Origin: Planctomycetota bacterium
Lineage (GTDB): Bacteria; Planctomycetota; Phycisphaerae; SM23-33
Length of the DNA stretch: 64,000 nt
NCBI GenBank assembly: GCA_030635145.1
Contig: DAOVZK010000005.1
Coordinates: 16,694-80,693, forward strand
Reading direction: 5' to 3'
This document shows positions 1 through 60,197 of the stretch, piece by piece. Within the stretch, counting starts at the first letter, position 1. The number at the start of each line of letters is the position of its first letter. The translations under genes and the position numbers were made by a program. Below the pieces are notes generated by a model. It made no database searches and was not told where the DNA came from. It saw only the letters and a list, made by a program, of their open reading frames with translations.

Positions 1-1152
1 TCGGTGTTGGAGGGCATGGTTATTGGTGCCTACGCTATCGGGGCCGACCGCGGTTATATTTACGTGCGGATGGAGTATCCGCTGGCGATTGAAAATCTTC
101 GAATCGCTATTGATCAGGCAACTCAGCGCGGGGTGTTGGGCGAGAACATACTCGGTAGCGATTTTAGCTTTAACGTGAAAATTTCGCGCGGGGCAGGGGC
201 GTTTGTCTGCGGCGAATCGACCGCACTGATGGCTTCTATCGAAGGGCTTACCGGCGAACCGCGTGCCAAGCATATCCACACCAGCGAAAAGGGCCTGTTC
301 GGTAAACCCACGAACCTCAACAACGTCGAAACCTGGGCTAACGTTCCGGTAATTATCGACAAGGGCGTCGAGTGGTACACGAGCATCGGCACGGAAAATT
401 CCAAAGGCACGAAGGTGTTTTCGCTTGTGGGTGCCATCAACAATACCGGGTTAGTCGAAGTGCCGATGGGCATTACGCTGCGGGAGATTATTTACGATAT
501 CGGCGGTGGGATTCCCAAGGGTCGTCCGTTTAAGGCTGTCCAAACCGGCGGGCCTTCCGGTGGATGCCTACCAGAAAACATGCTCGATTTACCGGTGGAT
601 TTCGATCAACTTACCGAGGTCGGGTCGATGATGGGCTCGGGCGGAATGATTGTGATGAACGACCACACATGCATGGTCGAAATCGCGCGGTACTTTACCG
701 ACTTTCTGCGGCGCGAGTCGTGCGGAAAATGCACACCCTGCCGCGAGGGCGTGCTGCGGATGTACGAAATTCTCGACAGCATCACAGCTGGGCGCGGAAA
801 GATGGAAGATATCGATCTGCTGGAGGAGATTTGCGGATACGTGCGGGACAACAGCATCTGTGGGTTAGGCAAGACCGCGGCGAATCCGACGCTCAGCACG
901 CTGCGATTTTTCCGCGATGAATACATCGCACACGTAAAAGACCACAAATGCCCCGCCGGGGTCTGCCAAGCACTGACAACATTCATCATCGACGAAAAAA
1001 CCTGCAAAGCATGCGGTGCCTGCCTCAAAGCATGCCCCGTTGAGGCAATTAGCGGCGGTGCGAAGAAAAAACCCGCGAAAATCGACCAGGACAAATGCAC
1101 CACCTGTGGCGCCTGCCGCGAGGCCTGCCTCTTTGATGCAATTATGACATAG
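1..1152 (+). CDS. NuoF-like NAD(P)H-binding flavoprotein subunit with a C-terminal 2x[4Fe-4S] ferredoxin domain (5' partial; probable electron-input module of a CODH, hydrogenase or formate dehydrogenase)
   Basis: The ORF runs off the window start. It carries NuoF/HoxF-type motifs (Gx[19 protein letters not shown]) and two CxxCxxCxxxCP ferredoxin motifs at the C-terminus. Confidence 0.8.
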
Positions 1153-1173
1153 ACGACAGTAACACAAGGAATT

Positions 1174-1407
1174 TTTAGACAGGATAACAAGATGAAAACT
1201 AAATCATGTTAATCCAAAAGAAAAAGAAGGTTCACCACAAAGAACACATAGATCGCAAAGAAAGATGTTTTTGCATGACGTTTTTCTTTTGCGTTCTCTT
1301 GCGGTGAATAATATTCGCTTACTGAAACCTGATTGCTGATAACTGAAAACTTAAAATAAATAACTATCCTGTGATCCTGTCAAAAAGATTCTTTTGATTA
1401 ACAGGAA
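1174..1407. repeat. Cluster of 'ATCCTGT'/'ACAGGAT' motifs (MITE-like element or operator array), copy 1
   Basis: Left end 'tttagacaggat' (1174-1186), right end 'ctatcctgtgatcctgtcaaaa' (1364-1385) and 'tgattaacagga' (1396-1407). The same motifs and an internal 'gatg(g)tgtttgca...ttttctttt' stretch recur at 26213-26377. Confidence 0.4.
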
Positions 1408-1426
1408 AAGGCCGTGAACAATCGAA

Positions 1427-2209
1427 ATGGACATGATAAAAACGACAATTGACGGGCGAGAAATAGAAGTTCAGCGAGACCGCTGGGCGCTGGAAGTCGC
1501 ACGCGAAATGGGTATAGAAATTCCAACGCTCTGCCATCACTCCGCCCTGGAACCCTACGGAGCCTGCCGCCTCTGCGTAGTTGAGGTTACCAAGGGTAAG
1601 TGGACGTGGTTAACGACGTCATGCGACTTGCCGATCCGCGAAGGGCTTACGATTCGCACCGACACACCCGCGGTAATCGCTGCCCGCAAGACGGCGTTGG
1701 AATTGATGCTAGCTCAGGCACCGGACGCCGAGGAAGTTCGCCAACTCGCCGAGCAGCTTGGCACGAAGTCCCCGCGATTCCCCGACCGCAATGAAAGCAA
1801 CGCGTGCATTTTGTGCGGATTGTGCGTGCGGGTGTGCAAGGTAGTGACGGGGAAGATGGCGATTTGCTTTTCCAATCGCGGTACAGACCGCAAAGTCGGT
1901 CCGCCGTTTGATCGCAGCTCCGACGAATGCATCGGGTGCAACGCTTGCGTGGACATCTGCCCGACGGGTTGCATCGAGTCGCGGGACGAAGCAGGGATTC
2001 GAAAAATTCCCATGCTTAAAACCGAGCTGAAATTGGCTGACTGCGAGGTCTGCGGAAAACCCTTCGCGCCGATCAGACAGCTGGAACATATGCAGGCTAA
2101 GCTCCGTGAAAAATTCGGAGACGATTTTGAGGCAGGGTGTATTTGCCCTGTGTGTAGACGAGAGCAAACGGCGGCGAGATTGCATAACGTCGCAGAAAAA
2201 ATTGGATGA
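1427..2209 (+). CDS. Fe-S protein with an N-terminal 2Fe-2S ferredoxin domain (NuoG/HndD N-terminal-like), two 4Fe-4S motifs and a C-terminal Cys-rich ribbon
   Basis: CHHSALEPYGACRLC 2Fe-2S motif; CILCGLCVRVC and CIGCNACVDICP 4Fe-4S motifs; CEVCGK...CICPVCRRE at the C-terminus. It lies between the NuoF-like gene and acsB. Confidence 0.7.
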   Translation: MDMIKTTIDGREIEVQRDRWALEVAREMGIEIPTLCHHSALEPYGACRLCVVEVTKGKWTWLTTSCDLPIREGLTIRTDTPAVIAARKTALELMLAQAPDAEEVRQLAEQLGTKSPRFPDRNESNACILCGLCVRVCKVVTGKMAICFSNRGTDRKVGPPFDRSSDECIGCNACVDICPTGCIESRDEAGIRKIPMLKTELKLADCEVCGKPFAPIRQLEHMQAKLREKFGDDFEAGCICPVCRREQTAARLHNVAEKIG

Positions 2210-2272
2210 ATTGATCTGACCGCTAAAAAGTGGTGAGATGTTGAAACAGTCTTTAGAATGGGAGACGCTGTT

Positions 2273-4453
2273 ATGTCACACGAGGTAATCTCGAGCGTTA
2301 TTCGCGGAGCAAACGTTTTCGTCGACGAGGCGGAGCAAAAATTGGCCGAGGCCATCAAAAGTAAGGGTGAGGATCATCCGGTGAGTTTTCCGGAGACGGC
2401 CTTTCAGTTACCGATGGTTCATGCATTGATGGGTCTTGAGGTTACGAAGGTCGGGCAGCTGAAAGATGTCGTCGCCCATGCCCGCGAGCTTGCTCCATCA
2501 CCACCGGCGGCAAAGTTATGGCTGCCGTACCTTGGCGACGGACTCGACGCCGGTATTGCGACGTTGCTGGCGCAGGAAGTTACGTGCGCACTGCGATATG
2601 TTAACGAAGAACCCATCGAGGAAGGGTTTACGGGATTTATTTCCGACACGATTCTTCGCGAGTTGGGCATTCAGTTAGTTGACGGGCGATTACCGGGCTT
2701 CGCCGCAATTCTCGGCCCTGCACCTACGGAAGAAATCGCCCTCAACACCATTCGCGAATTCCAGAAAAACAGCATCCTGACATTCATCCTCGCCAATCGC
2801 GACGGTGTGAGCATGCGCGACCAACTCGTCAAGCAGGGTGTCGAGCTGGGCTGGGACACTTATGTGGTACCGGTCGGCCGCGATACGCATTCGGCGATTT
2901 ATATTCTCGACTGGGCGATCCGCGGGGCACTTACGTTTGGCGGGCACAAAAAGGGCGACTGGGAATCCTGCCTGCGTTATTGCCGCGAGCGAATCTTCGC
3001 GTTCGGGCTGACGTTCGGCCCCATCCCCGACGACTGGTACGCCGTCGGCGCTGCCGCCATCGCCATGGGCTTCCCCGTAATTTCCGACCACGAATCTACC
3101 CCCGAAGTTCGCGCCACCGGCGTGACGACGTACGAAGCTCTCGTCCGCCAAACCGACCCCGAAAAACTCGTTGCCACCTGTATCGAGGTGCGCGGTGTGC
3201 AGGTCAAAATCGAAAACGTCGACATTCCGGTTTCGTACTCACCAGCCTTCGAGGGCGAACGCGTCCGCAAAGAAGACATGCAGGTGCAGTTCGGTGGGAA
3301 ATATTCCGGCGGCGTCGAGTTGCTCGAAACCGTTCCTGCAGACGATATCAACGACGGTGAAATTATCGTTAGCGGAAAAGATTTCGACGAAACCGAGGTC
3401 GGCGGCGTGCTCGATCTGGGAATTCTCGTGAAAGTCGCCGGGCGAAAAATGAAACAGGACTTCGAGGGAATTTTCGAGCGGCAGATGCACAGGTATCTCA
3501 ACGAAGCGATGGGGTTCATGCACACCGGCCAGCGGAATATGATCTGGTGCCGCGTCAGCAAAGCCGCCGTCGCCGCCGGGCTTCGATTAAAACACATTGG
3601 CACGATCGTCCACGCCAAAATTCACGACGAGTACGGCGGACTTGCCGAGAAAATTTCCGTTACCGTTACGACCGATCCCGACGAGGTCAAAAAGCTCGTC
3701 GAAAAAGCCCAGCCCGTCTACAGTGCCCGCGACGACCGCGTTGCTGGGATGACCGACGAATCAGTCGATACGTTTTATTCATGCACGCTCTGCCAGTCGT
3801 TTGCCCCGAACCATGTTTGCATGATCACCCCCGAACGCCTGGGTTTGTGCGGTGCGTATAACTGGCTGGACGGGCAGGCGGCGTACGAAATCAACCCCAC
3901 CGGATTCAATCAGCCGGTAACGAAGGGCAACTGCCTAAACGAGCGCACCGGCGAATGGGAAAACGTAAACAAATTTGTTTACGAGCATTCCAATCGCAGC
4001 ATCGAGCATTTCAGTGCGTATTCGCTGATGGAAAACCCGATGACGTCGTGCGGTTGCTTCGAGTGCATTTTGGCAATCGTGCCGGAGGCTAACGGCGTGA
4101 TGATCGTCAACCGCGAGTATCCCGGTGATACGCCGATTGGTATGCCGTTTTCCACATTGGCCGGTAGCGTTGGCGGCGGTGCGCAGACCCCGGGATTCCT
4201 TGGCGTCGGGCGATTGTATCTCACGAGCAAAAAATTCATCAGTGCCGAGGGCGGACTGAGTCGGCTGGTGTGGATGCCGAAGGAACTGAAGGAAAGTATG
4301 CGTGAGCGGTTGTCGCAGCGTGCAGATGAACTCGGGCTTGACGGGCTTGTCGACAAAATTGCCGACGACAGCACCGCGACGAGCTCCGAGGAGTTGCTGG
4401 AATATCTCGCAAAAGTCGAGCATCCGGCACTGGCGATGGAAGCAATGTTCTAA
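2273..4453 (+). CDS. acsB: CO-methylating acetyl-CoA synthase (ACS, A-cluster subunit) AcsB
   Basis: The 727-aa product is collinear with Moorella AcsB: HPVSFPETAFQLP, FEG..RKEDM, TFYSCTLCQSFAPNHVC, and the A-cluster motif SCGCFEC. The start at 2273 is chosen because a GGGAGA RBS sits 9 nt upstream; an alternative ATG lies at 2258. Confidence 0.9.
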   Translation: MSHEVISSVIRGANVFVDEAEQKLAEAIKSKGEDHPVSFPETAFQLPMVHALMGLEVTKVGQLKDVVAHARELAPSPPAAKLWLPYLGDGLDAGIATLLAQEVTCALRYVNEEPIEEGFTGFISDTILRELGIQLVDGRLPGFAAILGPAPTEEIALNTIREFQKNSILTFILANRDGVSMRDQLVKQGVELGWDTYVVPVGRDTHSAIYILDWAIRGALTFGGHKKGDWESCLRYCRERIFAFGLTFGPIPDDWYAVGAAAIAMGFPVISDHESTPEVRATGVTTYEALVRQTDPEKLVATCIEVRGVQVKIENVDIPVSYSPAFEGERVRKEDMQVQFGGKYSGGVELLETVPADDINDGEIIVSGKDFDETEVGGVLDLGILVKVAGRKMKQDFEGIFERQMHRYLNEAMGFMHTGQRNMIWCRVSKAAVAAGLRLKHIGTIVHAKIHDEYGGLAEKISVTVTTDPDEVKKLVEKAQPVYSARDDRVAGMTDESVDTFYSCTLCQSFAPNHVCMITPERLGLCGAYNWLDGQAAYEINPTGFNQPVTKGNCLNERTGEWENVNKFVYEHSNRSIEHFSAYSLMENPMTSCGCFECILAIVPEANGVMIVNREYPGDTPIGMPFSTLAGSVGGGAQTPGFLGVGRLYLTSKKFISAEGGLSRLVWMPKELKESMRERLSQRADELGLDGLVDKIADDSTATSSEELLEYLAKVEHPALAMEAMF

Positions 4454-4459
4454 TTAAGA

Positions 4460-4540
4460 AGGGACTAGGGAATAGGGACTGGGCACTAGAGCCTAATTCC
4501 TAACCTCTGATCCCTAGTCCCTAATTACAGGAGTTTTTTT
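4460..4540 (+). terminator. acsB-acsC intergenic 12-bp perfect inverted repeat (agggactaggga ... tccctagtccct) followed by a T7 run; candidate partial terminator or processing hairpin
   Basis: The arms lie at 4460-4471 and 4511-4522; the ttttttt run is at 4534-4540. Confidence 0.4.
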
Positions 4541-4617
4541 AAAAAACTATCAAGCGAGTTAGACGTTTAGCTTTTTAAGAATCATAAATCTTTAAATTTT
4601 AATATAGGAGTAAGGAG

Positions 4618-5961
4618 ATGGCACTGACAGGACTGGATATTTTCAAATCTCTTCCGAAGACGAATTGCAAGGAATGCGGCGTGCCGACATGTTTGGCGTT
4701 TGCGATGAAAGTCGCCAGCGGTCAGGCTGGGCTGGACGATTGTCCGAAGCTGACCGACGACGCCCGCTCGTCGCTAACCGAAGCCTCCGCACCCGCCCAG
4801 CGATTGGTGAAAATCGGCAGCGCCCCGCACTTAATCGAGATCGGGCAGGAAACGGTTCTGTACCGCCACGAAGAACGCTTCCATCATCCCACAGCTGTTG
4901 CGCTTACCATCAACGACACCATGAGCGAAGCGGATCTGACGCAGGCGTGCGAAAAATTCAAGGCGCTTTCGTTCCATCGCGTCGGAGAAACGCTTACCTC
5001 CGACATGGTCGCCCTGGTCAACGACTCCGGTTCGCCCGACAACATGCAAGCCGCCGCCGAAACCATCTACAACGCACTCGGAGTTCCGATGGTTCTGATG
5101 AGCGACTCGCCGAATACGCTCTCAACCGTCGCTATGGGGCCACTGTCTGGTGGTGCCGTGGTGCTGTACTGCACCGGCCCCGCCGAGGTCGTCGATCTTG
5201 TCGCCATGGTCAAAGACACCGACGCAAAACTTTGTGTTGACGGTACAATCGAATCCGTCGCCGGGCAGGTCGAGAAGCTAAACGAACTTGGGGTTAAGGA
5301 TATCCTTATTTCACCGGGTAAGGTGTCGGCGGGCGAGACGTTGGAGTTTCTGACCAAGTCGCGGCGAGGTACGCTTTTGAAAAAATTCCGCCAACTCGGT
5401 TGCCCCGTGCTGACGCTCGCGGTCGGAGACGATTCCGTGGCAGCTGCCCTCGATGCCTGTGCGTTTGTGTGCAAGTATTCCGGTATTGTGGTGTCCAACG
5501 CGTGGGAGGGGCACTTGCTGGCGCCGATTCTCACGACGCGACAGAACATTTACACCGACCCGCAGAAACCCGTGCAGGTTGAACCCAAAGTTTATGACGT
5601 CGGTGACGTGTCGGCTGACAGTCCGCTGCTGGTGACCACGAATTTCTCGCTGAGCTATTACTCCGTCGAGTCGGAAGTCGAAAGTGCCCGCGTACCGTGC
5701 CGCATAATCGCGGTCGATACTGAAGGCACGAGTGTTCTTACCGGCTGGGCGTCGGATAAGTTCAATCCCGAAACGATCACACAGGCGATGAAAACCGCGG
5801 GGGTCGATCAGTTGGTATCTCATCACAAGGTCGTTATTCCGGGTCACGTTGCGGTAATCGCGGCGCAGCTGGGGGAGGAATCGGGATGGAATGTTCTGGT
5901 CGGCCCGAAAGACGCGGGGGGCATAGGAGCGTATTTGAAAAACGACTGGAAGAATGTTTGA
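4618..5961 (+). CDS. acsC: Corrinoid iron-sulfur protein large subunit (CFeSP gamma) AcsC
   Basis: N-terminal CKECGVPTCLAFAMKVASG [4Fe-4S] motif, with a TIM-barrel remainder collinear with Moorella AcsC. An AGGAGTAAGGAG RBS precedes the start. Confidence 0.9.
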   Translation: MALTGLDIFKSLPKTNCKECGVPTCLAFAMKVASGQAGLDDCPKLTDDARSSLTEASAPAQRLVKIGSAPHLIEIGQETVLYRHEERFHHPTAVALTINDTMSEADLTQACEKFKALSFHRVGETLTSDMVALVNDSGSPDNMQAAAETIYNALGVPMVLMSDSPNTLSTVAMGPLSGGAVVLYCTGPAEVVDLVAMVKDTDAKLCVDGTIESVAGQVEKLNELGVKDILISPGKVSAGETLEFLTKSRRGTLLKKFRQLGCPVLTLAVGDDSVAAALDACAFVCKYSGIVVSNAWEGHLLAPILTTRQNIYTDPQKPVQVEPKVYDVGDVSADSPLLVTTNFSLSYYSVESEVESARVPCRIIAVDTEGTSVLTGWASDKFNPETITQAMKTAGVDQLVSHHKVVIPGHVAVIAAQLGEESGWNVLVGPKDAGGIGAYLKNDWKNV

Positions 5962-5994
5962 AATCAGGCAATAGGCAGTAGGGACCATGTATTA

Positions 5995-6063
5995 GTAGGG
6001 TCGGCCATTGCCGACCAATCCATTGACGGTATGCCTGAAAAGGTCGGCAGTGGCCGACCCTAC
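5995..6063. repeat. Twin hairpins (GGTCGGC-n4-GCCGACC, twice) nested inside a 12-bp perfect inverted repeat in the acsC-acsV spacer
   Basis: Hairpins at 5999-6016 and 6042-6059; the outer arms gtagggtcggcc and ggccgaccctac are exact reverse complements. Confidence 0.5.
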
Positions 6064-6080
6064 AAAACTTGGAAATTTTG

Positions 6081-8042: not shown

Positions 8043-8045
8043 TTG

Positions 8046-8807
8046 ATGCCAGGAAAAATGATAGCGATGACTGGAAAGGGCGGGTCGGGTAAAACCACAC
8101 TCGCCAGTATGCTCATTCGCCAGCTGGTTCGCACAAAGCGAACCCCGGTGCTTGCTATCGATGCCGACCCCAACGCCACGCTCGGGCTGACGCTTGGTGT
8201 GGATGTCCCGTCGACGATTGGGGATCTTCGCGACCGCATGGGCGAGGCTGCTTTGGACGTAACAGAGATTCCCAAAGAGCGGTTAATGGATCAGTGGTTG
8301 AGCGACATACTTACCGAGGAAGTCGGGTTCGATTTACTTACGATGGGGCATCCCGAAGGGCCGAAGTGTTACTGCTACGTGAATAATCTGCTGCGACGCT
8401 ATCTGCAGATGCTTCGCGGGAATTATCCGTATGTGGTCGTCGACTGCGAGGCTGGGATGGAGCATCTTTCGCGACTGACGATTGACGATGTCGATACGCT
8501 TTTGATCGTCGCCGAGCCTACAGGGGTGGGAATGGCGACGGCGGCGCGGATTTCGAAGATCGTCGACACCCTGCCGCTCAAAGTTAACAACCGCATACTC
8601 GCGATCAACAAATCCGCTACCGATGAGCTACCCGACACCAGCAACATTGCCGCCGACAGCGTCATACGAATTCCGTTTGATAGCGACCTCGCCCAGCGAT
8701 CCGCCCGCGGTGAACCCGTCGACGACATCGCCGGTTGCGAAATGCGAGAAACCATAACCGAACTGCTGGATTTGTGCCTGAGGGCACCTCAAAACGCAAA
8801 CTCATAA
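8046..8807 (+). CDS. acsF: CooC/AcsF-type Ni-insertion ATPase (CODH/ACS maturation)
   Basis: MinD/ParA-type P-loop MTGKGGSGKTT and a CYCYVNN (CxC) metal motif. The start overlaps the RACo stop; an alternative start lies at 8058. Confidence 0.85.
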   Translation: MPGKMIAMTGKGGSGKTTLASMLIRQLVRTKRTPVLAIDADPNATLGLTLGVDVPSTIGDLRDRMGEAALDVTEIPKERLMDQWLSDILTEEVGFDLLTMGHPEGPKCYCYVNNLLRRYLQMLRGNYPYVVVDCEAGMEHLSRLTIDDVDTLLIVAEPTGVGMATAARISKIVDTLPLKVNNRILAINKSATDELPDTSNIAADSVIRIPFDSDLAQRSARGEPVDDIAGCEMRETITELLDLCLRAPQNANS

Positions 8808-8827
8808 CGAGCGAAGGAGATAACGAT

Positions 8828-9817
8828 ATGACAACTACTACAGATGTATCAATAGCGATCCCGGACGTTGCCGAAAAATGGGGCGGGGGGATTAACGAAG
8901 TTACGATTGGCGCGACGGCCGACAGCGGCGGGTCGCGTGGTAGCACCGTTACGATTGGCGGGAGCAAGGCCGTGCCGTTTATGAGCTTCGAAGGTTCGCT
9001 CGGTTGCAAACCTGCTATCGCCGTTGAGGTCTGGGACATTGCTCCCGACGCCTTGCCCCCCCAGCTGTCGGAAGCCTATGGAGATTCGCTGAACTCACCC
9101 GGGGCGTGGGCGAAAAAGGCTGTCGAGTTTGGGGCTGAGCTTATCTGCCTGCGACTGATGGGTGCACATCCCGACGTCGCCGACAAATCGCCCGACGACT
9201 GCGCCGCCGCCGTGAAAGAAGTCTTACAAGCCGTCGACGTGCCGCTGATTATCTGGGGGTGCGATGTCGACGAGAAGGATAACCAGATTCTTCCCGCGGT
9301 TTCGTCGGCTGCCAATGGCGAGAACTGCCTCATCGGTACCGCCAAGGAAAAAAATTACCGCACGCTGGTGGCGGTCTGCCTTGCCGACGGTCACAAATTA
9401 CTAGCCGAAAGCCCGCTGGACATCAACATCGCAAAACAGGTCAACATCCTCTGCAGCGACGCCGGGTACCCGCTGGAAAATATCGTGGTTTTTCCCACGA
9501 CCGGTGCGTTGGGATACGGAATCGAATACGTTTACAGCATTCAGGAACGCGGACGGTTGGCGGGGCTGAGCGGCGATAAGCAGCTGTCTCAACCCGTGCT
9601 GTGCAATGTGGGGTACGAGGCGTGGCGGGTGAAGGAGGCAAAGGATCCGCCGTTTGATTGCGTGACCGACGAAAATCGCGATCAGTGGGGCGTGATGTGG
9701 GAGGCATCGACTGGAGTGGTGCTGCTGCAGTCGGGTGTGGAACTGCTGGTGATGCGGCACCCCAAGGCGATCGAATACATCAACGAGGCTATCAAAAGAT
9801 TTTTGCCCGATAAATAG
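8828..9817 (+). CDS. acsD: Corrinoid iron-sulfur protein small subunit (CFeSP delta) AcsD
   Basis: Collinear with Moorella AcsD (GATKD/GATAD, FEG, GENCLIGTAKEKNY, PLDINI...QLNIL). A GAAGGAGA RBS precedes the ATG at 8828. The track ORF begins at 8735, inside the acsF/cooC coding region (8046-8807); that in-frame extension is rejected. Confidence 0.85.
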   Translation: MTTTTDVSIAIPDVAEKWGGGINEVTIGATADSGGSRGSTVTIGGSKAVPFMSFEGSLGCKPAIAVEVWDIAPDALPPQLSEAYGDSLNSPGAWAKKAVEFGAELICLRLMGAHPDVADKSPDDCAAAVKEVLQAVDVPLIIWGCDVDEKDNQILPAVSSAANGENCLIGTAKEKNYRTLVAVCLADGHKLLAESPLDINIAKQVNILCSDAGYPLENIVVFPTTGALGYGIEYVYSIQERGRLAGLSGDKQLSQPVLCNVGYEAWRVKEAKDPPFDCVTDENRDQWGVMWEASTGVVLLQSGVELLVMRHPKAIEYINEAIKRFLPDK

Positions 9818-9855
9818 AGTTAATTTCGCGGCATCAGAGGAAAGGATTTTGAAAA

Positions 9856-10644
9856 ATGTTCGTAATTGGAGAATGCATTAACGGAACGACTCCTGCTGTT
9901 AAGGAAGCGATTCAAAACAAGGACGCCGAGTTCTTTCGCGATCTTACGCGCCGACAAGAAGCCGCCGGTGCCAGCGCCATCGACGTAAACGTAGGCCCAG
10001 CTGTCAGCGACCGCAAGGCAGGACTGCTGTGGTTAGTCGAGGTCGTCCGCAGCGTTACCGATTTGCCGCTGTCGATCGACACGGCAAAATGGGACATCAT
10101 GAAAGAAGTCGTCCCGCAGGTTCCGGGTGAGATTGTAATCAATTCCACGAAGGCAGACCCCGAGCTGGTGAGTGACTACGTGGGGTTGGCTGTCGAGCAT
10201 AATGCACGGCTGATCGGGCTTACAATCGACGCCGACGGTGTGCCGAGCACGACGGAAAAACGCGTCGAGCTTGGTGCGCAGATTGTGGCGATGGCGATGG
10301 AAGGGGGGCTGGACATTGACCGCCTCTACATAGATACGATTATCCTGCCGGTGAATGTTTCGCCAAAAACTCCGCTGGTGTGCCTGTCGGCCATCTCGCA
10401 GATACGAATGTTTTCGGATCCGTCCCCGCACATGGTTTTAGGGTTGTCGAACGTTTCGCAGCGATGCAACAATCGCGGGTTGATCAACAGCACTTACCTG
10501 GCGATGGCGATGGGGCACGGCCTCGACGCGGCCATCATGGATCCGCTGGATACGGAACTCATGAACACCGTGATTACCGGCGACCTGCTGAAAGAAAAGA
10601 TGATCTATTGCGATTCGTATCTCGAAGCAGCGAGGGGCAGCTAA
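9856..10644 (+). CDS. acsE: Methyltetrahydrofolate:corrinoid/iron-sulfur protein methyltransferase AcsE
   Basis: 262 aa with a pterin-binding DHPS-like fold; MFVIGECINGT and DVNVGP motifs match MeTr. Confidence 0.85.
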   Translation: MFVIGECINGTTPAVKEAIQNKDAEFFRDLTRRQEAAGASAIDVNVGPAVSDRKAGLLWLVEVVRSVTDLPLSIDTAKWDIMKEVVPQVPGEIVINSTKADPELVSDYVGLAVEHNARLIGLTIDADGVPSTTEKRVELGAQIVAMAMEGGLDIDRLYIDTIILPVNVSPKTPLVCLSAISQIRMFSDPSPHMVLGLSNVSQRCNNRGLINSTYLAMAMGHGLDAAIMDPLDTELMNTVITGDLLKEKMIYCDSYLEAARGS

Positions 10645-10645
10645 G

Positions 10646-11275
10646 TTGCAACGCGACCCGCGAATTTCAATTCCCCCGTCACAAAACAACTACGCCGACG
10701 CGGTGCAGCACGCCGTTGCGCATTTGGGCGCTCAGGGTAGCTCTCAGCTGGAACTGTTGGGGGCCAAACCCAACGGAAATTTGTGGCAGCTGCCCGTCCT
10801 GAACGACACGTTTGATGTCGACACAAAAACCGGATGCGTGGGGGCAAGTTCGGGGCAGCCTGTGGGGTTGCCGTGGAGGATACTTACGTTGCATTATCTC
10901 GCAGTTCGCGGGAATGTCGAAAAGCAAATCCCGTCGGTAGGGTTTGCGGATATTTCGGCTGGGCGGAGTTATGCGGGGGTTTACAAAGCTCGCGTGATTT
11001 CGCGATTGTGTGCAACAGTCGGCCGCACCGCCGAAACCCTGTGCTCCGCCGCTGACAATATTGGTGGGGTTGCGATCGAAGATTCAGACCTCGGATACGA
11101 CTTTGATATTTTTCCGCAAATCACCCTTCGCCTGCTATGGTACGCCCCGGACGACGAGTTTCCGGCGTCTGCGTCGCTTTTATTGCCGAAAAATATTTTG
11201 TCATTTTTCAGCGTGGAGGATACAGTTGTACTTTCGGAATCGTTGATCGCCCGATTGTCGGGTAAAGATTTTTGA
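10646..11275 (+). CDS. Conserved hypothetical protein in the acs operon (possibly DUF3786-like)
   Basis: 209-aa ORF with a TTG start 1 nt after the acsE stop. No recognisable catalytic motif; its operon position is the only functional clue. Confidence 0.45.
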   Translation: MQRDPRISIPPSQNNYADAVQHAVAHLGAQGSSQLELLGAKPNGNLWQLPVLNDTFDVDTKTGCVGASSGQPVGLPWRILTLHYLAVRGNVEKQIPSVGFADISAGRSYAGVYKARVISRLCATVGRTAETLCSAADNIGGVAIEDSDLGYDFDIFPQITLRLLWYAPDDEFPASASLLLPKNILSFFSVEDTVVLSESLIARLSGKDF

Positions 11276-11313
11276 GCGAAACTTTCAACTGTGCTCAGTT
11301 ACAGGATAAATGT

Positions 11314-12408
11314 ATGAAACCTTTATTTATAGCCGGTACCCAGAGAGATGTAGGAAAAACCACACTTTCGGTGGGGTTGTTGCGGGCATTTCAGGATCGT
11401 GGCCTACGCGTTGCCTACGCCAAGCCGCTCGGGCAGCGAATCAATACGATTGAAGGGCAGGAATTGCACGACGATGCACTGGTAGTGTCGAAAATTATCG
11501 GGCAGGAGAAATCCGAACAAGCTGCGATGGTCATCGGGCTTGGTAAAGGCCGCGTCGAAAAAGAAATCTTCGACATGAAAACTCCGCAGCTCGTCGAAAA
11601 AGTGCGGAAGTTATGTGCCCGGTTAGAGCAGGAATATGACGCCGTTATCATTGAAGGAATGGGCCACGTCGCCATGGGGTCTTGCCTCGGACTTTCCTGT
11701 GCCGACACCGCCCGCGTCGCCGGTGCCAAGGCGCTGCTGGTTTCACCCGGTGGTATCGGAAGTACGATCGACGAAATTGCGCTGTGCTCGACGTTTATCA
11801 AGTCTCGCGGTGTGGAATTTCTCGGTGCCATCATCAACAAGGTGTGGGCAGAAAAATACGACCGGATCGATGCCGCCACCCGCAAGGGCCTGGACAACAT
11901 TGGAATCACGTCGTTCGGTACGGTTCCGTATGACGAGTCGATGGCGTGTCCGACGATGCGGCAGGTTGTGGAACTGATGGGCGGTGAGCTGGTTGCGGGC
12001 AAGGATCATCTGGATAACGTCGTGAAAAATACCATCGTTGCGGCGATGGAGGCACGCCATATGATTCGATACCTCAAGGAGGGCACGCTCATGATAACCC
12101 CCGGCGACCGGGCCGACAACGTGCTGGCTGCGATGGGCGCGAATCAGCTTGGGGATGCCTGCTCTCCTACGCTGTCGGGCTTGCTGCTTACGGGCGGTTT
12201 TCGCCCGGATGGCGTGTGTATGCGACTGATAAAAGAGTCCAATCTCCCCGTGATTCTCGTTAAAGGTGACACCTACGCCGCCGCCAGCCGCTTCCGTCAA
12301 AAAACGTTCAAAATCGAACCGTCCGACGAAGAAAAAATCGCCTCGGCTGTCGAACTCGTCGCCAAATACGTTGACGTCGACACCATCTTAAAAAGTCTTG
12401 CTGAATAG
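11314..12408 (+). CDS. Stand-alone phosphotransacetylase-N-terminal-like protein: BioD/CobQ-type AAA P-loop domain plus DRTGG domain, with no PTA_PTB catalytic domain
   Basis: MKPLFIAGTQRDVGKTT P-loop at the N-terminus; LMITPGDRADNVLAA matches the DRTGG motif. An alternative TTG start at 11272 overlaps the upstream stop (TTGA). Confidence 0.7.
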   Translation: MKPLFIAGTQRDVGKTTLSVGLLRAFQDRGLRVAYAKPLGQRINTIEGQELHDDALVVSKIIGQEKSEQAAMVIGLGKGRVEKEIFDMKTPQLVEKVRKLCARLEQEYDAVIIEGMGHVAMGSCLGLSCADTARVAGAKALLVSPGGIGSTIDEIALCSTFIKSRGVEFLGAIINKVWAEKYDRIDAATRKGLDNIGITSFGTVPYDESMACPTMRQVVELMGGELVAGKDHLDNVVKNTIVAAMEARHMIRYLKEGTLMITPGDRADNVLAAMGANQLGDACSPTLSGLLLTGGFRPDGVCMRLIKESNLPVILVKGDTYAAASRFRQKTFKIEPSDEEKIASAVELVAKYVDVDTILKSLAE

Positions 12409-12507
12409 CATCTTCCGCGTATCGCACTCATATCTCTAACAGGGGGGGGTAAAATGTCTCTGAATACGTGTTTTTGTAAAATTTTGTGAAGTTTTTCCCT
12501 CTATTTC

Positions 12508-12535
12508 TTGACATCTCGCCTACAGCCTGTATTAT
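12508..12535 (+). promoter_or_regulatory. Candidate sigma70-type promoter TTGACA-N16-TATTAT upstream of the FNT gene
   Basis: ttgacatctcgcctacagcctgtattat. It is followed by a tandem AACCTTAA(A)CTT repeat at 12538-12561 in the leader. Confidence 0.4.
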
Positions 12536-12579
12536 CTCCAACCTTAAACTTTAACCTTAACTTGTCAGGAGACAAAAAA

Positions 12580-13422
12580 ATGCCCAGTGTAAATTCATAT
12601 CACCCGAGTCTGAGTCACAAAGACGCAACCAAAACGATTGCCAAGCTGGGGGTCGATAAGGTCAAGCCCAAAGCTTGGCAGCTATTCCTGTTGGGAATTT
12701 TGGCTGGGTTGTACATTGGTTTTGGCGGGCAGCTGTTTATGGTTACCGTAGCTGCCGGAGCTGGTACTATACTGGCAGGGCTTGCTAAGGTTTTTGGTGC
12801 GATGCTGTTTAGCGTTGGACTTATTCTGGTCGTCGTTGCCGGAGCAGAACTGTTTACTGGTAACGTTGCAATTATTATCGGTGTCATGGGTGGTATTGTC
12901 ACCAAACGCCGTATGCTGAAAAACTGGGTTGTCGTTTACATCGGTAACTTTGTGGGATCGGTTATTTTTGCAGTGTTAATGGCCAAATCCGGGTTGTTTG
13001 GAGGCACTGATGCTCTCAATGCCCTGGGTGAGCTTGCAAGTAAAATTGCCGCTGCGAAAATCAGCATACCGTTCTGGGAGGCGTTTATCAGGGGCATTTT
13101 CTGTAACATGCTTGTTATCCTGGCGATTGTTATGGCGATTATATCGAAGGATGTTATTTCCAAAATCTTCTGCATCGTTTTCCCCATCACCTGCTTTGTA
13201 GCCTGCGGGTTCGAGCACTGCGTCGCCAATATGTACCTCATTACGGTTGGTATGCTGGTTGACGGAACACCACTCTGGGAAACTTATCCCATGTTTACCA
13301 ATCTGATTCCGGTAACACTGGGTAATATCGCTGGTGGGCTGGCGATTTTGCTGATTCACCCTAACAGAATCAGGCAGATCAGCGTCCTGCTGAAAAAGAC
13401 CCACAACGCTAACGCGAAATAG
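12580..13422 (+). CDS. Formate/nitrite transporter (FNT) family channel, FocA-like
   Basis: Six-TM FNT fold with the conserved FCIVFPITCFVACGFEHCVANM region. A GGAGA RBS precedes the ATG at 12580. Confidence 0.85.
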   Translation: MPSVNSYHPSLSHKDATKTIAKLGVDKVKPKAWQLFLLGILAGLYIGFGGQLFMVTVAAGAGTILAGLAKVFGAMLFSVGLILVVVAGAELFTGNVAIIIGVMGGIVTKRRMLKNWVVVYIGNFVGSVIFAVLMAKSGLFGGTDALNALGELASKIAAAKISIPFWEAFIRGIFCNMLVILAIVMAIISKDVISKIFCIVFPITCFVACGFEHCVANMYLITVGMLVDGTPLWETYPMFTNLIPVTLGNIAGGLAILLIHPNRIRQISVLLKKTHNANAK

Positions 13423-24223: not shown

Positions 24224-24296
<73 letters not shown>

Positions 24297-26212: not shown

Positions 26213-26377
26213 TTTAGACAGGATCACAGGATAGAATATAGGCCTAAAAAATCCTGTTAATCAGGATTAATTTTCATAGCAACTTGTATTCGTTGCGATG
26301 GTGTTTGCAATTAAGAGAGCTTATATTCTGCTTTTCTTTTTAATAATTCGTGGCTAATCCTGTAATCCTGTCAAAAG
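26213..26377. repeat. Cluster of 'ATCCTGT'/'ACAGGAT' motifs (MITE-like element or operator array), copy 2
   Basis: tttagacaggatcacaggatag (26213-26234), the palindrome atcctgTTAATcaggat (26251-26267), and ctaatcctgtaatcctgtcaaaag (26354-26377). Shares motifs and internal sequence with 1174-1407. Confidence 0.4.
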
Positions 26378-54704: not shown

Positions 54705-54778
<74 letters not shown>

Positions 54779-60121: not shown

Positions 60122-60197
60122 TGGCTCCCCGAGTAGGACTCGAACCTACGACCTAGCGGTTAACAGCCGCTCGCTCTACCAATTGAGCTATCGGGGA
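60122..60197 (-). tRNA. tRNA-Asn (anticodon GUU), CCA encoded
   Basis: TCCCCGATAGCTCAATTGGTAGAGCG ... CTGTTAA anticodon loop ... GGTTCGAGTCC ... CTCGGGGAGCCA. Confidence 0.9.

What the first reader, a model, noticed from the sequence alone, without database searches (positions are those of the whole stretch)
1..13422. Bacterial-type CODH/ACS (Wood-Ljungdahl) cluster with an unusual NuoF/NuoG-like electron module, in a high-GC, possibly planctomycete background
The gene order seen is NuoF-like flavoprotein, a 2Fe-2S/4Fe-4S NuoG-N-terminal-like protein, acsB, acsC, RACo, acsF/cooC, acsD, acsE, a hypothetical protein, an AAA/DRTGG protein and an FNT channel. The catalytic CODH subunit (acsA/cooS) is not in the window and is expected upstream. 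A NAD(P)H-binding flavoprotein and a NuoG-like ferredoxin sitting directly in front of acsB suggest a pyridine-nucleotide-linked or bifurcating electron route to the CODH. The surrounding genes are typical of an aerotolerant heterotroph (rubrerythrin, RND efflux, PPi-PFK, BatA-like protein, DUF1570-like protein). The GC content is far above that of anammox planctomycetes, so if the host is a planctomycete this would be a non-anammox lineage carrying the carbonyl branch.
Basis: partly seen in the sequence, partly recalled or inferred. Interest (0 to 1): 0.6.

Follow-up and report, generated by a model that had tools for sequence, protein, structure and literature searches.

The report
Acetyl-CoA synthase operon with bifurcating module
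A sediment planctomycete that is not an anammox bacterium carries the Wood-Ljungdahl acetyl-CoA synthase operon with a HydABC/Bfu-type flavin "electron-splitting" module inserted in front of acsB, which suggests that NADH and ferredoxin are both wired to CO2/CO conversion.

Summary
Window 1-13422 encodes, all on the + strand: a NuoF-like protein (cut by the window edge), a 260-aa 2Fe-2S/4Fe-4S protein, acsB, acsC, RACo, cooC/acsF, acsD, acsE, DUF3786, a Pta-N-terminal-like protein and an FNT channel.

The two "Nuo-like" proteins are not complex I parts. They are BfuB and a short WorA-type BfuA of the HydABC/Bfu electron-bifurcating family. The signature His/Cys site, the C-terminal ferredoxin domain and the WorA fold (TM 0.81/0.85) are all present.

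cooS is not in the window and could not be recovered for this genome. All 9 relatives that carry the full bfuC-bfuB-bfuA set also carry cooS, and cooS-cooF-bfuC lies upstream of bfuB in the 7 with this gene order.

The host is Phycisphaerae, order SM23-33 (cold-seep MAG). GC is about 52 %, which is not high.

The module is optional. Sister clusters with 77-78 % identical AcsB lack it.

Best reading (inferred, not shown): CooS-CooF-BfuABC couples CO2/CO to NAD(H) plus ferredoxin inside CODH/ACS.

A "Codh-Bfu" class was predicted in 2022 for Firmicutes without ACS, so this is a new variant of a known kind. Interest is moderate.

The parts
1..1152 (+). bfuB (NuoF/HydB-like flavoprotein). This is the 3' 383 codons; the N-terminal ~235 aa lie outside the window. 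It holds part of the FMN/NADH domain, SLBB, the B1 4Fe-4S, the B2/Zn site (C224, T262, H311, C317, C322) and the C-terminal 2x[4Fe-4S] (B3/B4).
   Evidence: Pfam and NCBIfam. PDB best hits are the bifurcating HydB 7q4v_B (8e-163), 7t2r_B and WorB 9mqx_B, against complex I Nqo1 at 1e-84. The signature residues are invariant in 108 clade members.
1153..1426 (.). A 274-nt AT-rich (34 % GC) spacer between bfuB and bfuA. It contains the motif TATCCTGTGATCCTGTCAAA at 1365-1384. No + strand terminator was predicted.
   Evidence: Relatives have only 10-60 nt here. Public contigs L001 and L002 both begin inside it.
1427..2209 (+). bfuA: a short WorA-type adapter subunit of 260 aa. It has a [2Fe-2S] A1 (C36, 47, 50, 66), two [4Fe-4S] A2/A4 (C127, 130, 133, 137 and C168, 171, 174, 178), no His-ligated A3, a Cys4 zinc-finger-like site (C206, 209, 240, 243) and a C-terminal helix at 241-259.
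   Evidence: PDB 9mqx_A at 8e-43 over the full length. Invariant Cys. AF2 pLDDT 88. Foldseek top hit 9mqx_A with TM 0.81/0.85, against HoxU at 0.57/0.63.
2273..4453 (+). acsB: acetyl-CoA synthase, 726 aa (the ORF is open from 2258). It has the N-terminal CODH-docking domain and the A-cluster motifs C504xxC507 and C593-G-C595.
   Evidence: NF040764, 978 bits above the 800 cut-off. Pfam. PDB 6ytt_A at 3e-196. Motifs. Gene start from public calls.
4618..5961 (+). acsC: corrinoid iron-sulfur protein, large subunit.
   Evidence: NF003195, 478 bits above the 306 cut-off; PF04060 and PF03599.
6081..8042 (+). RACo/acsV: ATP-dependent reductive activator of the corrinoid protein (the ORF is open from 6069).
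   Evidence: PF00111, PF17650, PF17651 and PF14574. NF040756 scores 626 bits, below its 800 cut-off. Gene start.
8046..8807 (+). cooC/acsF-type P-loop Ni-insertion ATPase.
   Evidence: PF01656 and PF13614. Its position is conserved in all syntenic loci.
8828..9817 (+). acsD: corrinoid iron-sulfur protein, small subunit.
   Evidence: NF003376, 381 bits above the 280 cut-off. Start from public gene calls.
9856..10644 (+). acsE: methyl-H4folate:CFeSP methyltransferase.
   Evidence: PF00809. NF005719 scores 241 bits, just under its 259 cut-off. Conserved position.
10646..11275 (+). DUF3786 protein, a conserved accessory gene of these clusters with unknown role.
   Evidence: PF12654 at 4.7e-31. Present in loci L033, L086, L088, L090-L093, L175 and L176. 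No solved relative.
11272..12408 (+). AAA_26 + DRTGG protein. It resembles the N-terminal regulatory half of class II phosphotransacetylase and has no PTA_PTB catalytic domain.
   Evidence: Pfam. NF004167 matches only profile positions 2-372 of 708. Conserved in L033, L086, L091 and L175.
12508..12535 (+). Sigma-70-like promoter site: TTGACA-16-TATTAT, 11 of 12 matches.
   Evidence: This is a consensus match only.
12580..13422 (+). FNT-family channel, FocA-like (formate most likely). The probable start is the ATG at 12580, preceded by GGAGA. It may be a separate transcription unit.
   Evidence: PF01226 at 1.9e-70. TIGR04060 FocA scores 190 bits, below its 290 cut-off. Start codon.

Best explanation
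Window 1-12408 is the downstream two-thirds of a planctomycete (Phycisphaerae, order SM23-33) CODH/ACS operon. Its full form in relatives is cooS-cooF-bfuC-bfuB-bfuA-acsB-acsC-RACo-cooC-acsD-acsE-DUF3786-(Pta-N-like).

The 'NuoF-like' and 'NuoG-N-like' genes are BfuB and a short, WorA-type BfuA. Together they are the core and the adapter of a Type-2 BfuABC (HydABC-family) flavin-based electron-bifurcating module.

Proposed mechanism, by analogy with the solved WorABCSL enzyme:
- The CODH (CooS/AcsA), docked to AcsB, exchanges electrons with a HycB/WorS-type polyferredoxin (CooF).
- CooF passes them through BfuA clusters A4-A2-A1 to the FMN of BfuB.
- There they are split or merged between NAD(H), at the FMN, and ferredoxin, at the C-terminal B3/B4 domain: 2 CO2 + NADH + Fd(red, 2e-) + 3 H+ <-> 2 CO + NAD+ + Fd(ox) + 2 H2O.

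CO is a tunnelled, very dilute intermediate of CODH/ACS. The effective CO2/CO potential can therefore lie between NADH and ferredoxin, which is the condition a Bfu enzyme needs. In a fermenter without a respiratory chain, this would let the carbonyl branch re-oxidise glycolytic NADH and PFOR-derived ferredoxin together and would halve the ferredoxin cost of acetyl-CoA synthesis.

Shown: gene identities, Bfu signature features, WorA-type fold, conserved synteny, host lineage and the optional nature of the module.
Inferred: physical attachment to CooS via CooF, bifurcation/confurcation itself, and the physiological direction.
For: Gene identities.

BfuB:
- It is 61-66 % identical over 380 aa (counted for 7q4v_B and 7t2r_B from the alignments), including the C-terminal ferredoxin domain, to subunits of experimentally bifurcating enzymes. 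These are A. woodii, T. kivui and T. maritima HydB, A. mobile NiFe-HydB, WorB, NfnB and StnB, at E 1e-140 to 1e-163. Non-bifurcating Nqo1, NuoF and FdsB score about 1e-84 and align only to residue ~315.
- The His/Cys 'B2/Zn' site that Schut et al. report as present in virtually all BfuB and absent from non-bifurcating homologues (PMC9304861) is present. C224, H311, C317 and C322 are invariant in all 108 sequences and T262 is Thr in 98 of 108.

BfuA:
- It aligns over its full length with WorA of the bifurcating WorABCSL (9mqx_A, 8e-43). It shares WorA's lack of cluster A3 and its Cys4 zinc-finger motif.
- The AF2 model (pLDDT 88) gives TM 0.81/0.85 to WorA.

Partners in relatives:
- CooF-like is a 16-17-Cys polyferredoxin matching HDCR HycB3/4 and WorS over its full length.
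- CooS is closest to the ACS-bound CODH of C. autoethanogenum (6ytt_B, 1e-208).

Synteny:
- All 9 loci with the full bfuCBA set place it between the CODH genes and acsB.
- There are two different gene orders. Type I is cooS-cooF-bfuCBA-acsB (L033, L084, L086, L088, L090, L091, L092). Type II is cooF-bfuCBA-cooS-acsB (L064, L093).

Specificity: BfuA relatives below ~50 % identity sit in bfuCBA units without CODH/ACS.

Host: SM23-33 is described as fermentative and lacking an ETC.
Against: - cooS, cooF, bfuC and the 5' third of bfuB are not in the window. They could not be recovered for this genome, so completeness here rests on synteny in relatives.
- No Codh-Bfu has ever been purified. Schut et al. 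themselves note it is unclear why a -520 mV substrate would need bifurcation.
- The module is dispensable. L175 (cooS-cooF-acsB) and L176 (cooS-acsB) have 77-78 % identical AcsB without it, and L095 keeps only a BfuA-like gene.
- In this genome a 274-nt AT-rich spacer separates bfuB from bfuA, so co-transcription of the two halves is unproven.
- Gene adjacency does not prove a physical complex.
- The rest of this organism's redox inventory (Rnf, hydrogenases, methyl branch) was not seen.
Confidence: 0.6

Rival explanations
1. Simple, non-bifurcating NAD(P)-linked CODH. The NuoEFG-like proteins act only as a diaphorase, like HoxFU or the CooS-CooF-FNOR systems, passing CO-derived electrons to NAD(P)+ (or NAD(P)H electrons to CO2) without involving ferredoxin.
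For: CO at -520 mV can reduce NAD+ directly (table in PMC9304861). NuoF/NuoG-type domains are detected. CODH-FNOR clusters are a known precedent (PMC13240472).
Against: BfuB keeps the features that distinguish bifurcating from diaphorase-type homologues. These are the C-terminal B3/B4 ferredoxin-binding domain and the His/Cys B2/Zn site, invariant in 108 sequences, and the N-terminal B5 domain in its closest relatives. HoxU is a poorer match than WorA (NF005745 at 105 bits against a 333 cut-off; TM 0.57/0.63 against 0.81/0.85). In the reductive direction NADH alone could not drive CO2 reduction.
Confidence: 0.15
2. The Bfu module is co-regulated with ACS but serves another partner. Examples: supplying low-potential electrons to RACo/CFeSP reactivation, feeding a methyl-branch enzyme (MTHFR, FDH), or acting as an operon-encoded NADH/ferredoxin balancing hub not bound to CooS.
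For: The short BfuA has no catalytic domain and needs some partner. RACo needs a low-potential donor. FDH-like and MTHFR-like genes, and second NuoF copies, lie near several clusters (L088, L092, L093). BfuA relatives pair with many other modules.
Against: In both gene orders bfuCBA is sandwiched with cooF and cooS, not next to RACo or methyl-branch genes. In the Bfu-less cluster L175, cooF stays next to cooS, which ties cooF to the CODH. L142 has cooF-cooS-bfuCBA without any ACS/RACo genes detected in the ~10 kb held on either side of bfuA.
Confidence: 0.17
3. Chance adjacency. The NuoF/NuoG-like genes belong to an independent operon that merely abuts acsB in this genome.
For: A 274-nt AT-rich spacer with a repeated motif separates bfuB from bfuA in this genome.
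Against: bfuA lies on the acsB side of the spacer, 63 nt from acsB, and all genes are co-directional. The arrangement is conserved in 9 independent loci from at least three labelled lineages and in two gene orders. No + strand terminator was predicted in the spacer.
Confidence: 0.03

Closest known systems
WorABCSL (Wor-Bfu) of Acetomicrobium mobile, PDB 9mqx (PMC12318220)
   Same: It has a BfuBC bifurcating core and a short BfuA adapter (about 250 aa; A1, A2, A4; no A3; Cys4 zinc finger; C-terminal helix). That adapter docks a 4x[4Fe-4S] polyferredoxin, which wires a separate catalytic subunit. The window's BfuA matches WorA over its full length (8e-43; TM 0.81/0.85). The relatives' CooF matches WorS over its full length.
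   Different: The catalytic partner here is a Ni-CODH docked to acetyl-CoA synthase, not a tungsten aldehyde oxidoreductase. BfuA is only 36 % identical to WorA. Stoichiometry and nanowire formation are unknown. Nothing has been shown biochemically.
Predicted 'Codh-Bfu' (Type 2 Bfu) of Schut et al. 2022 (PMC9304861)
   Same: bfuABC genes are interleaved with cooS and Fe-S subunit genes. BfuA lacks A3/A5. It is proposed to couple CO/CO2 to NAD(H) and ferredoxin, and it is uncharacterised.
   Different: It was described from 4 sequences, Firmicutes only, as a CO-oxidising or detoxifying enzyme with no mention of ACS. Here the module sits inside a complete CODH/ACS operon directly in front of acsB. 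It is found in Planctomycetota (plus a Myxococcales-labelled MAG) and in at least 120 distinct 90 %-identity BfuA clusters. Whether BfuB falls in their clade 49 was not tested.
Bifurcating [FeFe]-hydrogenase HydABC (A. woodii 7q4v, T. kivui 8a6t, T. maritima 7p5h)
   Same: These give the best sequence matches to BfuB (A. woodii 7q4v_B 66 % identity, E 8e-163; T. kivui 8a6t_B E 6.5e-154; T. maritima 7p5h_B E 1.7e-140). The cofactor-binding residues are the same.
   Different: HydA carries the H-cluster domain and cluster A3. The protein here is truncated to the N-terminal Fe-S domains and has no hydrogenase domain.
Anammox (Kuenenia) and classical acetogen CODH/ACS clusters
   Same: Bacterial-type AcsB with an N-terminal CODH-docking domain, plus AcsCDE, RACo and CooC. 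AcsB matches the C. autoethanogenum, C. hydrogenoformans and M. thermoacetica proteins at E about 1e-192 to 1e-196.
   Different: In Kuenenia, acsA (kustd1546) and acsB (kustd1545) have consecutive locus tags (PMC3482989). The Bfu-less Phycisphaerae cluster L176 likewise has cooS directly before acsB. Here cooF-bfuCBA is inserted between them.
Respiratory complex I N-module (NuoEFG) and the HoxFU diaphorase
   Same: They share the ancestry of the FMN/NADH domain, the N3-type 4Fe-4S and the N-terminal Fe-S domains of NuoG/HoxU.
   Different: Scores are below all NuoF/NuoG/HoxU equivalog cut-offs (373 against 559; 92 against 470; 105 against 333). BfuB has an extra C-terminal ferredoxin domain and the B2/Zn site. 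There is no NuoG C-terminal domain and no membrane-arm genes in the window.

Membership tests
BfuABC (HydABC-type) electron-bifurcating family | BfuB C-terminal domain with two [4Fe-4S] clusters (B3, B4; the ferredoxin site) | tested here: met
   Two CxxCxxCxxxC motifs at residues 335-345 and ~366-376 of the window fragment. Pfam Fer4 families. Aligned to HydB and NiFe-HydB through residue 381. All 8 Cys are invariant in 108 sequences.
BfuABC (HydABC-type) electron-bifurcating family | BfuB 'B2' site (A. mobile C438, C476/Thr, H525, C531, C536; a Zn site in most structures), reported absent from non-bifurcating homologues | tested here: met
   Window C224, T262, H311, C317 and C322 align to these positions. 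C, H, C and C are invariant and Thr occurs in 98 of 108. The definition comes from PMC9304861 and PMC12318220.
BfuABC (HydABC-type) electron-bifurcating family | BfuB N-terminal thioredoxin-like [2Fe-2S] domain (B5) and a complete FMN/NADH site | not testable with these tools
   The N-terminal ~235 aa lie outside the window, and no full-length copy of this protein is in the database. The closest relatives (79-89 % identical) have a 4-Cys N-terminal domain, and L033 BfuB hits PF01257. The window fragment covers PF01512 positions 56-149.
BfuABC (HydABC-type) electron-bifurcating family | BfuC (NuoE-like [2Fe-2S] subunit) encoded with BfuB | not testable with these tools
   It would lie upstream of the window. 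A PF01257 gene directly precedes bfuB in L033, L064, L084, L086, L088, L090, L091, L092 and L093, and a tblastn BfuC hit does so in L094.
BfuABC (HydABC-type) electron-bifurcating family | Tightly coupled reduction/oxidation of NAD(H), ferredoxin and a third substrate | not testable with these tools
   This needs enzyme assays. No Codh-Bfu has been characterised.
Type 2 Bfu / WorA-type BfuA adapter | BfuA with clusters A1, A2 and A4, lacking A3 and A5, with no catalytic domain; the Cys4 at the A5 position forms a zinc finger, followed by a C-terminal docking helix | tested here: met
   16 invariant Cys in the pattern 4 + 4 + 4 + 4, and no H-x3-C-x2-C-x5-C motif. Full-length alignment to 9mqx_A. 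AF2/Foldseek TM 0.81/0.85, with a modelled helix at 241-259. Zinc occupancy and docking themselves are not testable.
Codh-Bfu (Schut et al. 2022) | cooS and Fe-S subunit genes interleaved with bfuABC in one cluster | tested here: inconclusive
   This cannot be seen in the window, because cooS and cooF would be upstream. It is met in all 9 loci that carry the full bfuCBA set.
Codh-Bfu (Schut et al. 2022) | BfuB belongs to their clade 49; the class is restricted to Firmicutes | not tested
The taxonomic restriction clearly does not hold here (Phycisphaerae).
Bacterial CODH/ACS (AcsABCDE) | AcsB with an N-terminal CODH-docking domain and A-cluster ligands | tested here: met
   NF040764 at 978 bits (cut-off 800) and PF18537. 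C504xxC507 and C593-G-C595. PDB 6ytt_A at 3e-196.
Bacterial CODH/ACS (AcsABCDE) | Corrinoid Fe-S protein AcsC/AcsD, methyltransferase AcsE, activator RACo and maturase CooC/AcsF | tested here: met
   AcsC NF003195 at 478 (cut-off 306) and AcsD NF003376 at 381 (cut-off 280). AcsE (241 against 259) and AcsV (626 against 800) fall just below NCBIfam cut-offs but have all Pfam domains.
Bacterial CODH/ACS (AcsABCDE) | Catalytic CODH subunit AcsA/CooS | tested here: not met
It is expected upstream by synteny. This reflects the window edge and is not evidence of absence from the genome.
Respiratory complex I N-module (NuoEFG) | NuoF/NuoG equivalog-level similarity, a full-length NuoG and linkage to nuoA-N | tested here: not met
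   TIGR01959 at 373 (cut-off 559) and TIGR01973 at 92 (cut-off 470). The protein is 260 aa, against ~600-900 aa for NuoG. There are no nuo membrane-subunit genes in the window.

The most novel reading that the evidence does not exclude
CooS-CooF-BfuABC forms one supercomplex with acetyl-CoA synthase and confurcates NADH plus reduced ferredoxin to drive CO2 reduction at the C-cluster. CO tunnelling to the A-cluster keeps the CO2/CO couple in the mid-potential range. This would be the first pyridine-nucleotide-linked acetyl-CoA synthase. It would let respiration-less fermentative Phycisphaerae use the Wood-Ljungdahl pathway as a direct NADH sink without Rnf or hydrogenase. It would also be an optional 'plug-in', gained and lost among otherwise near-identical operons.
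Probability: 0.35. Interest if true: 0.8.

Novelty: new variant of a known kind. Interest (0 to 1): 0.55.

Why it matters
Energy budgets for the Wood-Ljungdahl pathway assume that CO2 reduction at CODH costs reduced ferredoxin.

If a Bfu module inside the CODH/ACS operon lets NADH supply half of those electrons, ATP-yield calculations would change for a large, uncultured group of sediment planctomycetes. The same would hold if, in reverse, acetyl-CoA or CO oxidation yielded both NADH and ferredoxin. It would also explain how fermenters without Rnf or a respiratory chain can run the pathway.

It would give the first physiological rationale for the puzzling 'Codh-Bfu' class: a dilute, channelled CO intermediate.

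The natural Bfu+ and Bfu- sister operons offer a ready-made comparative test.

Finally, the finding documents CODH/ACS as common in non-anammox Phycisphaerae, which a recent genome survey of the class did not discuss.

Tried and rejected
1. Extending the contig upstream. The exact-protein look-ups found only L001 and L002 (both begin in the bfuB-bfuA spacer) and L083. No full-length copy of this BfuB exists among 5.8 billion proteins; the best hit is 89 % identical. cooS therefore could not be shown for this genome.

2. tblastn of AcsB against plasmids gave one irrelevant hit.

3. The genome-contig scan with BfuB returned 80 loci at 60-71 % identity, mostly Dehalococcoidia, Thermodesulfobacteriota and others. 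Only L033 and L064 had CODH/ACS. BfuB alone is therefore a poor marker.

It returned mainly distant BfuA (36-49 % identity) without CODH/ACS. This was useful as a contrast but not for counting.

5. Rfam found nothing in the cluster or the spacer.

6. Complex I N-module and HoxFU readings were rejected on equivalog scores, protein length, extra domains and fold ranking.

7. A separate, divergent operon was rejected: all genes are co-directional and the synteny is conserved.

8. Literature searches for NuoEF/Bfu inside CODH/ACS clusters of planctomycetes found only passing mentions. These were PMC6305446 (nuoEF near CODH/ACS in NPL-UPA2), PMC6344411 (COG1034/1894/1905 in WLP-context CODH clusters) and PMC13240472. 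Adam et al. 2018 (PMC5819426) is not held, and the 2026 eLife CODH-context paper has no relevant terms.

9. PDB searches for DUF3786 and the Pta-N-like protein were uninformative.

Full report
**1. Observation**

Pfam and NCBIfam identify them as follows.

- 1-1152: a NuoF-type flavoprotein fragment. It is in frame from base 1, so the window edge cuts it. It has part of PF01512, SLBB, PF10589 and a C-terminal 2x[4Fe-4S] domain.
- 1427-2209: a 260-aa protein with a 2Fe-2S domain (Fer2_4) and two 4Fe-4S motifs.
- 2258/2273-4453: AcsB (NF040764, 978 bits against a cut-off of 800; CODH_A_N, CdhC and ACS_CODH_B_C).
- 4618-5961: AcsC.
- 6069-8042: RACo/AcsV.
- 8043-8807: a CooC/AcsF-type ATPase.
- 8828-9817: AcsD.
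- 9856-10644: AcsE.
- 11272-12408: an AAA_26 + DRTGG protein that matches only the N-terminal half of class II phosphotransacetylase.
- 12508-13422: an FNT channel.

Gaps between genes are 274, 63, 164, 107, 0, 20, 38, 1, -4 and 99 nt. AcsB has the A-cluster motifs C504xxC507 and C593-G-C595.

GC is about 0.53-0.56 in the cluster and 0.42-0.58 across the window. That is moderate, not high. No cooS (Prismane family) gene occurs anywhere in the 64 kb.

**2. What the two 'Nuo-like' proteins are**

*The flavoprotein.* It scores below every NuoF equivalog cut-off (373 against 559 bits). Against solved structures, its best matches are all subunits of experimentally electron-bifurcating enzymes:

- A. 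woodii HydB (7q4v_B, 8e-163)
- A. mobile NiFe-HydB (7t2r_B, 1e-158)
- WorB (9mqx_B)
- T. kivui and T. maritima HydB
- NfnB
- StnB (8oh5_B)

Each aligns through residue 381, including the C-terminal ferredoxin domain. Complex I Nqo1/NuoF and FdsB reach only about 1e-84 and stop near residue 315.

Schut et al. (PMC9304861) define the BfuABC family by an invariant BfuBC core. Its BfuB carries a C-terminal pair of 4Fe-4S clusters (B3/B4) and an unusual Cys/His 'B2' site. That site is a Zn site in most structures (PMC12318220) and is missing from non-bifurcating homologues. In the alignment to A. mobile HydB, window residues C224, T262, H311, C317 and C322 fall on C438, C476 (Thr in most BfuB), H525, C531 and C536.

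In an alignment with 107 full-length relatives (70-89 % identical), the B2/Zn C, H, C and C, the four B1 cysteines and all eight B3/B4 cysteines are invariant. Thr occurs at the fifth B2 position in 98 of 108 sequences.

The N-terminal B5 domain lies outside the window. The closest relatives have a 4-Cys thioredoxin-like N-terminus.

*The 260-aa Fe-S protein.* Its best match over its whole length is WorA (9mqx_A, 8e-43, residues 2-251 against 3-241). WorA is the BfuA subunit of the tungsten aldehyde oxidoreductase WorABCSL, which is experimentally bifurcating. According to that paper, WorA has these features:

- It has clusters A1, A2 and A4.
- It lacks A3.
- It has a Cys4 zinc finger where other BfuA bind A5.
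- It ends in a helix that docks the polyferredoxin WorS.

The window protein and 62 relatives have exactly 16 invariant cysteines: C36/47/50/66, C127/130/133/137, C168/171/174/178 and C206/209/240/243. They have no His-ligated cluster motif.

An AlphaFold2 model (pLDDT 88.3; helix 241-259) hits WorA first in the PDB, with TM 0.81/0.85 and rmsd 2.8 Å over 254 columns. HoxU gives 0.57/0.63. By the criteria of PMC9304861 this is a Type 2 BfuA: an adapter that needs extra subunits to reach a third substrate.

**3. What lies upstream: evidence from relatives**

Public contigs identical to the window (L001 from SRR13892605; L002 = JAGLOU010000003.1) both start inside the bfuB-bfuA spacer. No full-length copy of this BfuB exists in the protein collection; the best hit is 89 % identical. 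The window therefore seems to begin at an assembly break, and cooS cannot be shown directly for this genome.

Relatives fill the gap.

- *Genome scan.* L033 (a 'Ca. Brocadiia' MAG) has cooS-cooF-bfuC-bfuB-bfuA-acsB-acsC-RACo-acsD-acsE-DUF3786-PtaN. L064 (a Myxococcales MAG) has cooC-acsD-cooF-bfuC-bfuB-bfuA-cooS-acsB-acsC.
- *Sampled BfuA homologues.* The BfuA protein has 3137 homologues at E <= 1e-20, and the top 120 are 56-78 % identical. All six whose context I sampled (56-64 % identical) sit in the same cluster: divergent cooC, then cooS-cooF-bfuC-bfuB-bfuA-acsB-acsC-RACo-cooC-acsD-acsE-DUF3786(-PtaN) (L084, L086, L088, L090, L091, L092).
- *Closed genome.* A closed 5.84-Mb 'Phycisphaerales' genome (L093, CP070678.1) has the second order: DUF3786-cooC-cooF-bfuC-bfuB-bfuA-cooS-acsB.

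In these relatives CooS is closest to the ACS-bound CODH of C. autoethanogenum (6ytt_B, 1e-208). The CooF-like protein is a 16-17-Cys polyferredoxin resembling HDCR HycB3/HycB4 and, over its full length, WorS.

**4. Specificity and controls**

- Among the 80 best BfuB loci in species-representative genomes, only L033 and L064 carry CODH/ACS.
- In a metagenome scan, BfuA relatives at 36-49 % identity sit in bfuCBA units without CODH/ACS. The exceptions are L142 (cooF-cooS-bfuCBA, with no ACS genes detected in the ~10 kb held on either side), L110 (bfuA-acsB) and L095 at 58 % identity.
- L095 is a variant with cooC-cooF-ACT-domain gene-shortened bfuA-cooS-acsB and no bfuBC.
- From the AcsB side, I deliberately chose two clusters because their contigs were absent from the Bfu hit lists. 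Both lack the module, although their AcsB is 77-78 % identical to the window's. L175 is cooS-cooF-acsB... and L176 ('Phycisphaerae bacterium') is cooS-acsB....
- On a rough NJ tree of AcsB, these Bfu-less clusters nest among the Bfu+ ones.

The bfuCBA set, with cooF, is therefore an optional insert. It always sits between the CODH genes and acsB in an otherwise conserved operon. That pattern argues for a functional tie to CooS and shows the module is not essential for CODH/ACS.

**5. Host**

JAGLOU is MAG RS_7.bin.51 from reduced sediment of the Site-F cold seep in the South China Sea. It is 81.6 % complete with 7.4 % contamination, 52.5 % GC and 2.09 Mb. GTDB classifies it as Planctomycetota; Phycisphaerae; SM23-33; SM23-33; B1-G9 (PMC9357000 supplements). 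GroEL from the window is also in this MAG.

NCBI labels the exact BfuA '[Phycisphaerae bacterium]'. The 120 nearest AcsB (72-89 % identical) that carry names are almost all Phycisphaerae, Planctomycetota or Pirellulales MAGs. Named near-BfuB hits are mostly the same.

A 2024 survey of Phycisphaerae genomes describes SM23-33 as strictly fermentative and lacking an electron-transport chain. It does not mention CODH/ACS (PMC11266412).

In Kuenenia, acsA (kustd1546) and acsB (kustd1545) have consecutive locus tags (PMC3482989), so the anammox cluster is of the Bfu-less kind.

**6. Mechanism (inference)**

By analogy with WorABCSL, the proposed electron path has three steps.

1. CooS, docked to AcsB through AcsB's N-terminal domain, exchanges electrons with CooF.
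2. CooF passes them via BfuA A4-A2-A1 to the FMN of BfuB.
3. There they are bifurcated or confurcated between NAD(H) and ferredoxin (B3/B4).

Schut et al. list CO2/CO at -520 mV, Fd at about -500 mV and NADH at about -280 mV. They note that bifurcation would make sense only at very low CO. In CODH/ACS, CO is a tunnelled intermediate. This is established knowledge for the Moorella enzyme; it is my inference that it applies here.

Each tenfold drop in CO raises the couple by about 30 mV. Steady-state CO in the pascal range would then put it midway between NADH and ferredoxin.

In the synthetic direction the enzyme would consume one NADH and one reduced ferredoxin per two CO. That suits a fermenter producing both from glycolysis (a PPi-PFK is present in the window) and from pyruvate oxidation. 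The reverse direction (acetyl-CoA or CO oxidation) cannot be excluded.

The adjacent FocA-like channel, and a PFL-like gene next to L175, hint that formate feeds the methyl branch. This is speculative.

**7. Comparison with what is known, and novelty**

- 'Codh-Bfu' was predicted in 2022 from 4 Firmicute sequences, as a CO oxidiser and without reference to ACS.
- Inoue et al. 2019 listed COG1034/1894/1905 among genes in WLP-context CODH clusters.
- A paper on candidate phylum NPL-UPA2 noted nuoEF near CODH/ACS.
- None of the papers I could search interprets a Bfu module inside the CODH/ACS operon, reports it in Planctomycetota, or notes that it is optional.

I therefore rate this a new variant of a known kind. 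It is not categorically new, and it is not proven biochemically.

**8. Caveats**

- The upstream third of the system is inferred from relatives.
- MAG taxonomy depends on binning, although 64 kb of physical linkage and the protein neighbours agree with it.
- The 274-nt AT-rich spacer between bfuB and bfuA is unique to this genome and may carry a promoter or a small repeat.
- The frequency of Bfu+ against Bfu- clusters was not measured rigorously.
- The NJ tree has no support values.

Noticed in passing
window 1365-1384 (+), 26214-26233 (-), 26356-26375 (+): A 20-nt motif, TATCCTGTGATCCTGTCAAA (tandem ATCCTGT half-sites), occurs three times with 0-2 mismatches and 0 expected by chance. One copy is in the AT-rich bfuB-bfuA spacer and two are in the AT-rich gap upstream of a thioredoxin-like gene. 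It may be a regulator site or a small repeat. Both public identical contigs break inside the first spacer.
   Followed up: partly
L175 7351-12181; L176 8037-12181: Sister CODH/ACS operons with 77-78 % identical AcsB lack bfuCBA. L175 keeps cooF between cooS and acsB, and L176 has cooS directly before acsB. They nest among Bfu+ clusters on an AcsB NJ tree, which implies repeated loss or gain of the module.
   Followed up: partly
L095 1817-8624: A variant cluster: cooC-cooF-(ACT-domain protein)-N-terminally shortened BfuA-like gene-cooS-acsB. It has no bfuB or bfuC, so it is either a degenerate form or an alternative regulatory form of the module.
   Followed up: partly
window 10646-11275 and 11272-12408: DUF3786 and a stand-alone Pta-N-terminal-like (AAA_26 + DRTGG) protein are conserved at the 3' end of these operons, in Bfu+ and Bfu- forms alike. 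Neither has an informative solved relative. Their role in CODH/ACS is unknown.
   Followed up: partly
window 12508-13422: An FNT channel lies directly after the operon. It is FocA-like but below the curated cut-offs, and it has its own strong promoter-like site. Its true start is probably the ATG at 12580. It is not conserved at this position in relatives. It may link formate exchange to the methyl branch.
   Followed up: partly
L093 3822-6299 (-); L176 19317-22181 (-): Next to the clusters lie unusual methyl-branch or redox genes. L093 has an 825-aa MTHFR-DUF5981-Pterin_bind fusion with NAD_binding_1/DHODB and a molybdopterin protein. L176 has DUF5981 + FlpD + a 1502-aa HdrA/GltD-like protein.
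   Followed up: no
L090 5172-6937: cooS is called as two ORFs (172 + 415 aa) in this 295-kb contig. This could be a frameshift, a pseudogene or an assembly error.
   Followed up: no
BfuB relatives P0124, P0130, P0135: The N-terminal [2Fe-2S] (B5) domain of ACS-linked BfuB comes in two subtypes. One has the motif ICGGTGC...TGCHGFCE (4 Cys). The other has GTCGLANG...TGCVGFCE and seems to lack one of the four cysteines.
   Followed up: no
L006, L009-L011, L015, L018 etc.; P0238: BfuB proteins 66-71 % identical to the window's occur with ~245-aa short BfuA in Dehalococcoidia, Thermodesulfobacteriota and Thermoplasmata-labelled MAGs without CODH/ACS. One 70 % relative is labelled Ca. Methanoperedens. 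Their third-substrate partners were not examined.
   Followed up: no
window 21747-22376 (-): An FTCD_C/FchA-like (methenyl-H4folate cyclohydrolase-type) gene scores only 102 bits against a 275 cut-off. It sits in an operon with two ORFs of 214 and 341 aa that match no family, plus an RDD protein.
   Followed up: no
window 24224-24296 (-), 54705-54778 (+), 60125-60197 (-): Three tRNA genes are the only Rfam hits in the window.
   Followed up: no
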